Shown here: positions 12,001 through 15,000 of the stretch, piece by piece
How positions within the stretch are numbered: position 1 is the stretch's first letter
Layout: every line of letters starts with the position of its first letter
Assembly: GCA_963844965.1 (NCBI GenBank)
Contig: CAWJQC010000008.1
Span: 1 to 64,000 of the forward strand
Source of the DNA: an uncultured bacterium
GTDB taxonomy: Bacteria > Patescibacteriota > Minisyncoccia > UBA6257 > 2-01-FULL-56-20
Length of the DNA stretch: 64,000 bases
Direction: 5' to 3'
Program-made: the position numbers

Positions 12001-15000
12001 TTCGCCGCGGGGCCGCCGAAAAGCGGCGCTATATAGTTGTGATAGAAATCGCCAAAGATATTGGCGTGCGCCTGCGGCGCGAATATGAGAACGCCCAAAA
12101 ACAAGCCGGCAACCAAGCTTACCGCCACAATGCCCGCGATTCTTTTGCTACCTTGATCGTGCTCCATGCGCTCAATTATATTCTAATATACGAACACCGC
12201 GCAAATAAAGTTGCGGCTTACAAAAGAAAAAGCCCCACCTCCCTCGGACCCGTCTCCGCGTATTTTGGATCGGCCATCCGAGGGATAGGTGGGGACACTA
12301 CCCGCCTACGTCTTACTCCGTCTTCATCCAGGTGGTACCAGGTACCATATTCCATTGTAGCAGAGGGCAATCGGCTGTCAAGAGCCTAATTTTTCAGGCA
12401 ACGCCTCACAATAGCAAGGGCTTTTTTGACTTCCATTTCTGTCGTCGGTCTACCGAAACTGAAACGGATGCTCCGTTTGGCGCGCTCTTCGGAAAATCCG
12501 AGCGCTTCAATCACGTAAGAACCCCCAATTGCCCGCGAGCGGCACGCCGAGCCGGCGGAAACGGCAAGGCCAGCGAGATCAAATTTCATAAGCAAGTCCT
12601 CGGATTTATAGCCAGGGAAGTGAATATTCAGAATGTTTGGCAACCGATCCGAATCTACGAATTTATCCGAATGCCACGAATGTTTCTTTTCAGACAATTC
12701 GGATGAAATTCGGGTTTTTCGGGTCGCGGCACCGTTAATTTCCGCTTTCGGATAAATTTTCCTGAGCTCATGCCAGAAATAATTGCGAAGTCTTGCAATT
12801 CTTCTATTTTCTAATTCGCGCGAATTAGAAAATATAAGTTCGGTGGCTCTGGCAAAACCAATGATTGCCGGTACGTTTTCCGTCCCACTACGCAGTCCGA
12901 ATTCCTGGCCGCCGCCAGTCAAAATTGGTGAAAGGTAATTGGCGACACGCGACATGGAAGATTTCTTTTCCACTTTACCTGTCGCATTTCCCATTCCCCT
13001 AACATAAAGCGCTCCTGCGCCTTTCGGACCGTAGATTTTATGCGAAGACAGGGTCATCATATCAACACCGAGCTTGTTTACATCACAATCCAAAAATTGA
13101 AATGCCTGCGCGGCGTCGGTGTGGAATATGGGGTAGAAACTAGAATTTAGAAAGTAGAAAGTAGAATTTTTACTTCTATTTTCTATTTTCTTTTTTCTAA
13201 ATTCTCGTATGACCTCTGCGATTTCAGAAATAGGTTGAATGACGCCGATTTCGTTGTTGGCATATATAACGGAAACCAGAACCGTGTACCCGTTAAGGGC
13301 GGTTTCCAATTTTTTTAAATCAACAACGCCGCGGCGGTCAACTGGCAGATAAATTACTTCAACGCCGTTTTTCTCCAAATCGTGGGCCGTTTCCAAAACC
13401 GACTCATGCTCCACCGCGGATATTATCATCCGCGGGTTTCGGGCTGCGGATTGTGAACTCGTTAACTCGTTAACTCGCAGTCTCTTTAATTACTCCCCGC
13501 AACGCAATATTATTCGCTTCCGTCGCCGAGCCGGTAAAAATTATTTCCCTAAAATCAGTGCCAATCGCGCGCGCGATCGCCTCGCGCGATTTATCAACCG
13601 CCGCAATCGCTTCCTGACCGAAAGAATGAAGCGAGCCGGGATTACCGAATTTTTCCGCGAAATATGGCCCCATCGCGCGCAAAACACGCGGGTCAACAGG
13701 AGTGGAAGCGGCGTAATCAAGATAAACGCGCTCACATTTCATGATAATTTATCGTCATTATTATAGAAAAATTAAAACGCGCCGAGAAGTATTCCCGACG
13801 CGCCGAACTCAAACCTTTTTGTTTGCCGTCTTATACCACGGTAAACCGTCAACGACTTCCGTTTCGTAATCGCCAAAAATGTTCGGATGGCGAGCTCTCA
13901 TTTTTTCCGCTACCATTCCAAAAACAAGCCGTATTTCTTCTTCTGCTCCGGGCGCGGTGCGCATTTCTATCACGTGGCGAAGCTCCCTCGGATTGACTGA
14001 CCAGCCGATCGAGGTCGCCAAACCATCCGGCGCAATGCGACGCATAGCAGAGGTCAACTTCTTTTTATCTTCAAATTTCGTCATCTTCTCGATTTCAAGC
14101 ATCTCGGCAAGTTCCAGCTGCCATTTTTCCATCATTTCCACTTTCTCAACAATGAATTTCATCAACGCTTCCGATTTCACGTGATTGCGGAACACGCGGG
14201 GTATCCAAAACCTCAGCTTATCCAATCTCACAAACCGCAAACTTTCCTGAGAAATAGCAACGCCAATCCTGTGGCGCACAAGCTCGTGCGTGAAGACGCG
14301 GCTGACATCCATGAAAATCATATTGATAAATGCATGCTCCATCACCGAACCATGCCCGACGTTCAGAAGGTTTTTCAAATATTCGTCGTTATGCTCGCGT
14401 ATCTTTGTGACGTTTGGATTCAGACCTGGCTTGAAACTCCGATAACACAAGCGTCCCATCACCTCCACAATTTCTTCCACATCCGTAGGAGCGTCTGATT
14501 CCCATTCTGGTGCACCGACCTCCTTCAAGTAAAGTTCAAGCTCATCTTCAACGATCCTCGTTTCGCCTATGATAAAAACTTTTGGCTCTACAAGTTCCAT
14601 GGATATATTATACCCCCTCGCTAAAAAATTAACGAACTCCATAAACAGTAAACAAAAATTCGCCGCGGGTCAACTGCGGCGAATTTTTCATTTTGCGCTT
14701 AACACTCTGCGATTGACAATTTGCGCCTTGCCTATCATCAGTACTCGTCTCCCATCCCTCCAGGCATACCGCCGGGCATGGGAAGATTTTTCTTCTCCGG
14801 AATGTTCGTTATCGCCGCGCCGACGGTCAAGTAATTCGCCGCCACCGAAAGCGCGTTCACGAAAGCGGTCTTTACGACTTTTAAGGGGTCAACTATACCA
14901 GCCGCCTTAAGGTTACCGATTTCGTTTGTAATCGCGTTGAAACCAGTCCAATCGGACTCCTCAGATTTAGCCGCCTTTCTCACCCTTAATATTTCCAAAA

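What the first reader, a model, noticed from the sequence alone, without database searches (positions are those of the whole stretch)
12222..12381. ORF-less transcription unit with a consensus promoter and an intrinsic terminator between the cysteine desulfurase and htrA
On the minus strand, TTGACA-16 nt-TACAAT (12354-12381) is followed about 50 nt later by a 15-bp GC-rich stem and CTTTTTCTTTTGT (12222-12294). No coding potential lies in between. This predicts a small RNA of about 120 nt. It could instead be a terminator-containing attenuator/leader for htrA, or the desulfurase terminator with an internal promoter. I could not match SRP, 6S, tmRNA or RNase P motifs.
Basis: seen in the sequence. 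Interest (0 to 1): 0.6.

Follow-up and report, generated by a model that had tools for sequence, protein, structure and literature searches.

The report
Orphan small-RNA cassette upstream of htrA
Between a cysteine desulfurase gene and the htrA protease gene of an uncultured Patescibacteria genome lies a promoter-to-terminator unit of about 125 bases; it matches no known RNA family, recurs at the same site in one other lineage, and is probably a small lineage-restricted RNA, not an htrA leader.

Summary
On the minus strand, TTGACA-16-TGnTACAAT (12381-12354) is followed 60 nt later by a very stable hairpin (12294-12233, -39 kcal/mol, z -4.1) and CUUUUUCUUUUG. Rfam 15 gives no match at any threshold.

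- htrA has its own promoter-like box, GCAAC-N17-CGTAT (12214-12188). It lies between the terminator and the ATG and is of ECF-sigma type. It recurs upstream of htrA in 9 of 29 Patescibacteria relatives, so the upstream unit is not needed to express htrA.
- The whole cassette recurs at the same site in one other contig (L091, HtrA 73% identical). The -35, the extended -10, two 5' sequence blocks and the outer stem are conserved. The inner stem has a different sequence but is still paired.
- About 25 other relatives lack the cassette, including the closest ones.

No antiterminator is possible: the alternative fold is 24-34 kcal/mol worse.

One caveat. The frame that continues in phase after the desulfurase stop codon stays open across the cassette in both genomes, and its first ~20 codons show a coding-like substitution pattern.

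Best reading: a lineage-restricted small RNA with its own promoter that shares the desulfurase terminator. Confidence is moderate, there are only two instances, and the function is unknown.

The parts
12386..12388 (-). Stop codon (TAG) of the cysteine desulfurase ORF; the P1 -35 starts 4 nt after it
   Evidence: Aminotran_5, E 1e-42
12354..12381 (-). P1: sigma70-type promoter TTGACA-16-TACAAT with extended -10 TG (12362-12361)
   Evidence: 11/12; 8 such sites observed against 0.58 expected; intergenic and co-oriented. Conserved in L091 as TTGACA-18-TGcTAAGAT.
12346..12350 (-). Predicted transcription start, 5-9 nt after the -10
   Evidence: Inference from promoter geometry; no transcript data
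12333..12347 (-). Perfect 7-1-7 palindrome TGGTACC-T-GGTACCA at +2..+16. It could be a small 5' hairpin in the RNA or a DNA operator.
   Evidence: unique in the window, 0.04 expected. L091 has GGTAC|GTACC at the same place.
12309..12322 (-). Conserved block GACGGAGUAAGACG, mostly unpaired in the predicted fold of the window RNA (L091: GACGGUAUAAGACG, 12/14 identical)
12233..12294 (-). Long hairpin: 7-bp outer stem, bulge, 10-bp stem and apical part
   Evidence: -39.3 kcal/mol, z -4.13. L091 has the same outer stem, and a 10-bp inner stem of unrelated sequence.
12221..12232 (-). U-rich tail CUUUUUCUUUUG. With the hairpin it forms an intrinsic terminator for P1 and for the desulfurase transcript. 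It may also act as an A/T-rich upstream element for P2.
   Evidence: In L091 the tail is CUUAAAAUUUUU, a weaker match.
12188..12214 (-). P2: ECF-sigma-type promoter box GCAAC-N17-CGTAT, proposed as htrA's own promoter
   Evidence: 9/29 relatives against a background of 0.034 per 110 nt. AAC/CGT as the ECF hallmark and htrA as an RpoE target: PMC8103513.
12175..12180 (-). TATAAT 7 nt before the htrA ATG. This is an alternative sigma70 -10 that would give a leaderless htrA mRNA.
   Evidence: The same arrangement occurs in L081, L082 and L086. Inference only.
10872..12167 (-). htrA (trypsin-like protease plus PDZ domain)
12218..12370 (-). 50-codon TTG ORF in phase with the desulfurase ORF. Its first ~20 codons are conserved with L091. 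Its stop codon lies after the terminator U-run.
   Evidence: no protein homologue found

Best explanation
This is a self-contained small-RNA unit.

Proposed mechanism:
- A sigma70-type promoter (P1) sits directly after the desulfurase stop codon and starts transcription near 12348.
- RNA polymerase makes about 125 nt and stops at a very stable hairpin plus U-run (12294-12221).
- That hairpin is also the only terminator for the desulfurase transcript.
- htrA is not fed by this unit. Its own ECF-type promoter (P2, 12214-12188) lies between the terminator and the ATG.
- The product resembles the own-promoter class of sRNAs embedded in a 3' UTR. It has a 5' part of about 55 nt with few predicted pairs, carrying two conserved blocks that are presumably the working part, followed by a long hairpin.
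- The hairpin also shields the stress-controlled P2 from upstream transcription.

Shown: the motifs, the predicted fold, conservation of the cassette in one other lineage, absence from Rfam, and absence of an antiterminator fold.

Inferred: that P1 fires, that termination is efficient, and that the RNA acts in trans or at all. Targets are unknown.
For: - P1 quality and context: 11/12 plus an extended -10. Such sites are 14-fold enriched over shuffles and mark real gene starts in this genome.
- Hairpin: -39.3 kcal/mol, z -4.1, followed by 9 U in 12 nt.
- P2: GCAAC-N17-CGTAT lies downstream of the terminator. It is found upstream of htrA in 9/29 relatives, including loci without the cassette (L082, L086, L089, L090, L092), against a background of 0.034 per 110 nt. 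It matches the AAC/CGT hallmark of ECF promoters, and htrA is a classical RpoE target (PMC8103513).
- Homologous cassette at the same position in L091. The -35 is identical although it falls in a different codon phase, and TGn plus the -10 keep the key positions. The 5' blocks are 78-86% identical, against about 56% at fourfold sites of htrA and roughly 40% by eye in the P2 spacer. The outer stem and GGUGGGGCUU are identical. The inner 10-bp stem differs at 10 of 10 pairs, 9 of them on both sides, yet is fully paired.
- The 11-codon AUG ORF at the transcript start is not conserved (AUG becomes ACG in L091).
- No bistable fold: freeing the 3' arm costs 24 kcal/mol in the window and 34 kcal/mol in L091.
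- No Rfam family matches.
Against: - There are only two instances.
- The cassette is absent from about 25 other Patescibacteria htrA loci. These include the closest to the window (L081 81%, L082 78%, L085 77% HtrA identity) and the closest to L091 (L092, 88%).
- In L091 the U-run is interrupted (CUUAAAAUUUUU), so termination there is doubtful.
- The inner stem is more diverged than neutral sites. It may have been replaced wholesale, so it is not clean covariation evidence.
- The conserved 5' blocks show a coding-like pattern.
- No conserved target pairing was found in the htrA 5' region.
- No transcript evidence is available.
Confidence: 0.45

Rival explanations
1. Promoter-proximal attenuator. 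P1 is the housekeeping sigma70 promoter of htrA. The hairpin is a strong terminator in its leader that keeps basal read-through low, or is overridden by a protein factor. The ECF-type P2 downstream bypasses it under stress. The short RNA is a by-product.
For: - L087 and L093 carry a near-consensus promoter (TTGACA/TTGACT-16-TAAAAT) immediately upstream of htrA, directly after the desulfurase stop codon in L087. It drives htrA with no hairpin in between, so P1 looks like an ancestral htrA promoter.
- The unit is in sense orientation, 55 nt from the htrA ATG.
- The L091 U-run is weak, so read-through into htrA is likely there.
Against: - There is no alternative fold. The terminator is 24-34 kcal/mol more stable than any structure that frees its 3' arm, and L091 has no upstream partner at all for the 5' arm.
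- No Rfam leader or riboswitch matches.
- Six relatives express htrA from P2 alone with no P1, so P1 is dispensable for htrA.
- A by-product RNA does not explain the conserved 5' blocks.
Confidence: 0.2
2. Small ORF or ribosome-coupled unit. The frame in phase with the desulfurase continues open across the cassette. Ribosomes that finish the desulfurase restart at the conserved TTG, 16 nt (window) or 10 nt (L091) after the stop codon, and translate through the hairpin. They either make a ~50-aa peptide or simply melt the terminator, coupling htrA transcription to upstream translation.
For: All:
- The frame is open and in phase in both genomes.
- In 17 aligned codons, 7 of 11 nucleotide differences are at third positions.
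- In the block GAA..AGG, 5 of 6 changed codons are synonymous and 1 is V/I.
- The two gaps are 3 and 9 nt.
- In L091 the ORF ends 2 nt before the htrA ATG.

A missing Shine-Dalgarno sequence is not informative here, because only about 6 of 70 long ORFs have one.
Against: - Combined significance is only about 0.03, on post-hoc choices of frame and block.
- Codons 2-6 change non-synonymously while their third positions are conserved.
- TTGACA and the blocks CCCCACC and GGTGGGGCTT are conserved in different codon phases. The tail is not conserved as protein.
- In the window the stop codon (12220-12218) lies beyond the terminator's release point, so a terminated mRNA would have no stop codon.
- The window's desulfurase is itself interrupted by an 8-bp tandem repeat.
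- No protein homologue exists in 5.8 billion sequences.
- The only Pfam hit is sub-threshold (Choline_bind_1, E 0.014).
Confidence: 0.15
3. Only a terminator or insulator. The hairpin is the desulfurase terminator and a barrier in front of P2. P1 is a decaying or fortuitous promoter, and the RNA has no function of its own.
For: - It is the only terminator after the desulfurase stop codon.
- This intergenic spacer is evolutionarily fluid, ranging from 10 to 250 nt, with unrelated hairpins in L007 and L085 and a small hairpin plus T-rich stretch in L082.
- The cassette is often absent.
Against: - P1 and the first ~50 transcribed nt are clearly more conserved between the window and L091 than neutral positions: 78-86% against about 56% at fourfold sites of htrA and roughly 40% by eye in the P2 spacer.
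- The -35 is conserved irrespective of codon phase.
- A plain terminator needs neither feature.
Confidence: 0.15
4. Mobile palindromic insertion (MITE- or REP-like) that happens to carry promoter-like and terminator-like sequences.
For: - The presence/absence pattern among close relatives is patchy.
- A MITE-like insertion with clear terminal inverted repeats sits at the htrA ATG in L082-L084, so such elements do visit this spacer.
Against: - There is no second copy in the 64-kb window or in 95 other loci.
- A JGI metagenome scan for the stem arms and two IMG/VR scans for other conserved blocks gave chance hits only. Phage and plasmid collections gave nothing.
- There are no convincing terminal inverted repeats or target-site duplication.
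- Both known copies are at the identical site with homologous flanks.
Confidence: 0.05

Closest known systems
Own-promoter sRNAs embedded in the 3' end of an upstream gene and sharing its terminator (for example DapZ after dapB and MicL in cutC of enterobacteria; from my own knowledge)
   Same: A promoter sits at or just after the end of the upstream ORF. The Rho-independent terminator is shared with the upstream mRNA. The 5' part is conserved and has few predicted pairs. The unit lies in an envelope/protein-quality-control neighbourhood (MicL is sigmaE-dependent).
   Different: The promoter is sigma70-like, not sigmaE-like. There is no sequence or Rfam similarity. No Hfq- or ProQ-type chaperone is known for these bacteria. 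Targets are unknown. Only two instances exist.
Terminator-containing 5' leaders (riboswitches, T-boxes, leader-peptide attenuators)
   Same: The order is promoter, structured RNA, terminator, then gene, all on one strand.
   Different: No antiterminator alternative exists (24-34 kcal/mol gap). No Rfam aptamer matches. The downstream gene has a conserved promoter of its own after the terminator.
ECF-sigma (sigmaE/sigmaW-type) control of htrA/degP
   Same: P2 has AAC in the -35, CGT in the -10 and a 16-17-nt spacing, upstream of htrA, as in the classical RpoE regulon (PMC8103513).
   Different: This concerns P2, not the cassette. No ECF sigma gene was seen in the 64-kb window, and the promoter assignment is by motif only.
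Hairpin insulators and REP-like intergenic palindromes
   Same: There is a long GC-rich palindrome between two same-strand genes, and its inner sequence turns over quickly.
   Different: It is single-copy. It comes with a conserved promoter and conserved 5' blocks.

Membership tests
Any Rfam 15 family (SRP, 6S, tmRNA, RNase P, riboswitches, leaders, known sRNAs) | Covariance-model score at or above the family's gathering threshold | tested here: not met
   0 matches in the whole window; the best scores are 17.4 and 15.7 bits against thresholds of 50-80. These are generic hairpin or terminator matches (ctRNA_p42d, miRNA precursors).
Sigma70-type promoter (P1) | A -35 and -10 hexamer close to consensus with a 16-18-nt spacer, in an intergenic position, conserved in a homologue | tested here: met
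   for the window. L091 has TTGACA-18-TGcTAAGAT. Promoter activity itself is not testable here.
Intrinsic (Rho-independent) terminator | A stable GC-rich hairpin followed immediately by a U-run | tested here: met
   for the window.
Intrinsic (Rho-independent) terminator | The same hairpin plus U-run in the homologue | tested here: inconclusive
   L091 keeps the hairpin (-46 to -49 kcal/mol for the whole RNA, z -4.8), but its tail is CUUAAAAUUUUU.
Independent trans-acting sRNA | Own promoter and own or shared terminator, with no conserved ORF | tested here: inconclusive
   The promoter and terminator criteria are met. The AUG mini-ORF is not conserved. However, an in-phase frame with a coding-like pattern exists.
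Independent trans-acting sRNA | Discrete transcript of the predicted size | not testable with these tools
   No transcriptome data are available. Literature searches found nothing on sRNAs of Patescibacteria.
Independent trans-acting sRNA | Conserved seed with conserved target pairing | tested here: inconclusive
   The 5' blocks are conserved in the one homologue. Duplex predictions against the htrA 5' region fall at non-homologous positions in the two genomes.
Riboswitch or RNA-structure attenuator | Mutually exclusive terminator and antiterminator folds of comparable stability | tested here: not met
   the alternative fold is 24.4 kcal/mol (window) and 34.4 kcal/mol (L091) less stable, and there is no conserved partner for the 5' arm.
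Riboswitch or RNA-structure attenuator | The leader is the only route of transcription into the regulated gene | tested here: not met
   The conserved P2 box lies between the terminator and the ATG. This assignment is by motif only.
ECF-sigma-dependent promoter (P2) | AAC in the -35, CGT in the -10, 16-17-nt spacing, recurrent upstream of orthologous genes | tested here: met
   The hallmark is taken from PMC8103513.
ECF-sigma-dependent promoter (P2) | A cognate ECF sigma factor encoded in the genome | tested here: inconclusive
   None was found in the 64-kb window by tblastn with SigW/RpoE sequences recalled from memory, nor by Pfam on the two weak hits. The rest of the genome was not available.
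Small protein or leader peptide | Conserved ORF with a start codon, synonymous-biased substitutions and protein homologues | tested here: inconclusive
   One search gives the coding-like pattern (combined p about 0.03). The tail is not conserved, the frames of other conserved blocks differ, and no homologue exists.
MITE- or REP-type mobile palindrome | Multiple dispersed copies, terminal inverted repeats, target-site duplication | tested here: not met

The most novel reading that the evidence does not exclude
The cassette encodes a genuine riboregulator specific to a sub-clade of Patescibacteria (Paceibacteria/Liptonbacteria-like). It would be a small RNA made from a sigma70-type promoter beside the ECF-controlled htrA gene, inside a conserved desulfurase-htrA-clpB proteostasis cluster with groESL nearby, acting through its conserved 5' blocks. 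To my knowledge no functional sRNA family has been described for the Candidate Phyla Radiation, so this would be among the first.

A more exotic variant: ribosomes that continue in phase past the desulfurase stop codon melt the terminator and so couple htrA transcription to upstream translation.
Probability: 0.3. Interest if true: 0.5.

Novelty: new member of a known kind. Interest (0 to 1): 0.35.

Why it matters
Regulatory RNAs of the Candidate Phyla Radiation are essentially uncharted. These bacteria have tiny genomes and few regulators. A conserved promoter-to-terminator RNA next to the envelope protease gene would give a concrete candidate to look for in metatranscriptomes.

The analysis also yields two practical by-products for annotating these genomes:
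- an ECF-type htrA promoter motif (GNAAC-N16/17-CGTAT);
- a CIRCE-like operator on the groES and clpB promoters.

If the cassette is only a terminator with a stranded promoter, the finding is ordinary.

Tried and rejected
- **Rfam.** Searched at gathering threshold over the whole window, and at E <= 10 on the element and on its L091 homologue. Only generic hairpin hits appeared. ARAGORN found no tRNA or tmRNA.
- **SRP-RNA reading.** The apical sequence lacks the GGAA tetraloop and AGCA motif, and no SRP hit appears even at E <= 10. Rejected.
- **Repeats.** blastn-short of the element against the window gave no second copy. blastn and nhmmer against 95 related loci gave only the window itself and L091.
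- **Metagenome scan with the stem arms.** One chance hit inside a coding region.
- **Two IMG/VR scans with conserved blocks.** Chance hits in coding regions. Phage and plasmid blastn gave nothing.
- **Leader peptide MVPGTTWMKTE at the transcript start.** Its AUG is ACG in L091. Rejected.
- **RNA thermometer.** The hairpin is far too stable (-39 kcal/mol) and lies 65 nt from the ATG. Rejected.
- **HrcA/CIRCE control of P1.** P1 shares only TTAG and GATTGCC with the CIRCE-like palindromes of the groES and clpB promoters, with about 7 of 16 mismatches and a spacing one nt shorter. Left open, but weak.
- **GGTAC palindrome as a regulon operator.** No other copy in the window.
- **Target prediction against the htrA 5' region.** No shared site.
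- **Peptide search in 5.8 billion proteins.** Nothing found.
- **MAFFT/RNAalifold on the two RNAs.** The stems were misaligned, so helices were compared from the individual folds instead.
- **Limits reached.** No covariance model was built, because two sequences would add little over nhmmer.
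Full report
**Context.** All genes around the finding lie on the minus strand. In order they are:
- groES-groEL (16801..14738);
- thyX (14642..13809), with its own terminator at 13804-13776;
- a class-V aminotransferase / cysteine desulfurase, split into ORFs 13742..13470 and 13429..12386;
- the finding;
- htrA (12167..10872; trypsin-like domain plus PDZ);
- a 111-codon ORF with a classical terminator;
- clpB.

HtrA relatives place the window in Patescibacteria, among Paceibacteria/Liptonbacteria-like MAGs. The desulfurase-htrA-clpB order is conserved in this clade.

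**Observation.** The minus strand reads TAG(stop)-GCTC-TTGACA-N16-TACAAT, with TG at -15/-14 (12381-12354). This is 11 of 12 consensus positions.
- Sites of this quality number 8 in the window, against 0.58 +/- 0.74 in shuffles.
- Five of them lie in the ~12% of the window that is non-coding, each pointing at a downstream gene (groES, clpB and others). Such matches therefore mark real promoters in this genome.
- Sixty nt downstream begins a hairpin (12294-12233) with 7 + 10 + 3 + 3 pairs, -39.3 kcal/mol, z = -4.13, and 0 of 200 shuffles as stable.
- The hairpin is followed directly by CUUUUUCUUUUG. The tool's terminator scan misses it only because it caps loops at 8 nt.
- The predicted RNA runs from about 12348 to about 12224, roughly 125 nt.

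**Known families.** Rfam 15 gives nothing at gathering thresholds in the whole window. At E <= 10 it gives only generic hairpin or terminator hits on the element and on its homologue. ARAGORN finds no tRNA or tmRNA.

**What lies between the terminator and htrA.** Immediately after the U-run comes GCAAC-N17-CGTAT (12214-12188).
- L082, whose HtrA is 78% identical, has no trace of the upstream unit. It nevertheless keeps about 50 nt here almost unchanged: TGCAACTTTATTTGCGCGGAATTCGTATAA.
- The pattern G[ACT]AAC-N16/17-CGTAT recurs 32-51 nt before the htrA ATG in the window, L082, L086, L089, L090, L091, L092, L005 and L008.
- That is 9 of 29 Patescibacteria htrA upstream regions, against a background of 0.034 per 110 nt in the same loci.
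- AAC in the -35 and CGT in the -10 are the hallmark of ECF-sigma promoters, and htrA/degP is a classical RpoE target (PMC8103513).
- I therefore read this box as htrA's own stress-type promoter, P2. This is an inference from the motif. No ECF sigma gene was seen in the 64 kb available.

In consequence, htrA does not depend on the upstream promoter P1, and six relatives have P2 alone.

**Conservation of the cassette.**
- Nineteen species-level Patescibacteria genomes (HtrA identity at most 67%) show no similarity.
- The closest loci obtainable also lack it: L081 (81%), L082-84 (78%), L085 (77%), L086, L087, L089 and L090. In these loci the desulfurase-htrA spacer ranges from 10 to 250 nt.
- L091 (Logan SRR18214601, HtrA 73%) carries a clear homologue at the same site. 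Its features are:
  - TTGACA overlapping the desulfurase stop codon, an 18-nt spacer ending in TGc, then TAAGAT;
  - GAAUACGGUAC, GUACCAC and GACGGUAUAAGACG;
  - a hairpin with the same outer stem (CCCCACC.../...GGUGGGG) and a 10-bp inner stem of unrelated sequence (UAUCGGCCGA/UCGGCCGAUG against UCCCUCGGAU/GUCCGAGGGA in the window);
  - GGGGCUU, an A/U-rich stretch, UAAGCCGCAAC, and P2.
- L092, whose HtrA is 88% identical to that of L091, goes straight from the stop codon to P2.
- nhmmer with the two-sequence alignment finds nothing else in 95 loci.
- One JGI metagenome scan, two IMG/VR scans and the phage and plasmid collections give only chance hits or nothing.

The cassette is thus real and old enough to be shared by two sub-lineages, but it is frequently absent and therefore dispensable.

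**Is the conservation more than neutral?**
- htrA of the window and L091 is 73% identical in protein and 56% identical at fourfold-degenerate sites. By eye, the P2 spacer is about 40% identical.
- P1 through +12 is about 78% identical. The block GACGGNNUAAGACG is 12/14 identical. CCCCACC, GGUGGGGCUU and UAAGCCGCAAC are identical.
- The -35 is conserved although it falls in different codon phases relative to the upstream stop codon.
- The two -10 changes hit hexamer positions 3 and 4, which I take from general knowledge to be the least critical.
- The inner stem is less similar than neutral sites. I treat it as a replaced palindrome that kept its pairing, not as clean covariation.

**Leader or attenuator?**
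- Forcing the terminator's 3' arm to stay unpaired costs 24.4 kcal/mol in the window and 34.4 kcal/mol in L091.
- In L091 the nascent RNA offers no partner at all for the 5' arm. A riboswitch-like switch is therefore not supported.
- The 11-codon AUG ORF at the predicted transcript start is not conserved.
- In favour of a link to htrA: L087 and L093 carry a near-consensus promoter immediately upstream of htrA, directly after the desulfurase stop codon in L087, and it drives htrA with no hairpin. The L091 U-run is also interrupted (CUUAAAAUUUUU), so read-through is likely there.

**A coding-like signal.**
- The frame that continues in phase after the desulfurase stop codon (TAG in the window, TGA in L091) stays open across the cassette in both genomes.
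- From a shared TTG, the window reads L-P-S-A-T-M-E-Y-G-T-W-Y-H-L-D-E-D-G-V-R-R-R. L091 reads L-L-S-A-K-I-E-Y-G-T-Y-H-D-G-I-R-R-R.
- Seven of 11 nucleotide differences are at third positions, and the two gaps are 3 and 9 nt. My combined estimate is p of about 0.03, made post hoc.
- Against coding:
  - codons 2-6 change non-synonymously while their third positions are conserved;
  - the tails are unrelated, and other conserved blocks are read in different phases;
  - in the window the stop codon lies beyond the terminator's release point;
  - the window's desulfurase is itself interrupted;
  - no protein homologue exists.
- A missing Shine-Dalgarno sequence is uninformative here, because few genes have one.
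- I keep this reading as a rival at 0.15.

**Verdict.** My preferred reading, at 0.45, is a lineage-restricted small RNA with its own sigma70-type promoter. It shares the desulfurase terminator and is insulated from, and independent of, the ECF-type htrA promoter. Its layout resembles own-promoter 3'-UTR sRNAs such as DapZ or MicL; that comparison is from my own knowledge and is not a membership claim.

The rivals are:
- a promoter-proximal attenuator of a second htrA promoter (0.2);
- a translated or ribosome-coupled ORF (0.15);
- a mere terminator or insulator with a stranded promoter (0.15);
- a mobile palindrome (0.05).

Transcription, termination efficiency and any trans action are inferred, not shown. 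The finding is a new member of a known kind, of moderate to low interest until transcript data or more homologues exist.

Noticed in passing
window 16848-16874 and 10338-10364 (minus strand); L081, L086, L087, L089 upstream of clpB: CIRCE-like palindromes TTAGCAAT-N11-ATTGCYAA overlap the -35 of the groES and clpB promoters (0.3 expected by chance). The same operator-plus-promoter precedes clpB in four relatives. This is probably the HrcA-type heat-shock operator of the clade, and it diverges from the classical TTAGCACTC-N9-GAGTGCTAA.
   Followed up: partly
window 12188-12214 and htrA upstream regions of L005, L008, L082, L086, L089, L090, L091, L092: An ECF-sigma-type promoter motif G[ACT]AAC-N16/17-CGTAT lies 32-51 nt before the htrA ATG in 9 of 29 Patescibacteria loci (background 0.034 per 110 nt). 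No ECF sigma gene was seen in the window.
   Followed up: partly
window 9247 (clpB) and 13454-13477 (desulfurase): clpB is split by a single extra T inside the conserved ...[14 protein letters not shown]... motif. The desulfurase is split by an 8-bp tandem repeat, CGAGTTAA x2.6, that introduces a frameshift and a stop codon. These are either real pseudogenes or assembly errors.
   Followed up: partly
window 10100-10316, hairpin 10158-10173: The clpB leader is about 220 nt long with about 30% GC. It holds a hairpin, CCCCAAATGTTTGGGG followed by TTTGTAATTT. A homologous TTTCCAATGTTTGGAAATTG lies in the clpB leaders of L081 and L086, so this may be a conserved 5'-UTR element.
   Followed up: no
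L082 2864-3000 (same in L083, L084): A MITE-like insertion of about 135 nt sits exactly at the htrA start codon. Its terminal inverted repeats are GGATCCCTCACCTTTT / AAAAGGTGAGGGAT. It separates the conserved P2 box from the ATG and supplies an SD-like AGGTGAGGG.
   Followed up: no
L085 590-775: The desulfurase-htrA spacer of this relative holds two unrelated strong hairpins (151-nt fold, z = -4.5), one followed by CUUGUUUUG. The layout resembles the window's but there is no sequence similarity.
   Followed up: partly
window, whole: Strong Shine-Dalgarno motifs precede only about 6 of 70 long ORFs. htrA has TATAAT 7 nt before its ATG, which suggests a leaderless mRNA. No tRNA and no Rfam hit occur in 64 kb.
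   Followed up: no
window 13149-13191 (plus strand): An AT-rich 18-bp palindrome, AGAAAGTAGAAAGTAGAA...TTCTATTTTCTATTTTCT, lies inside the desulfurase ORF in a stretch of about 39% GC. It may be an insertion.
   Followed up: no
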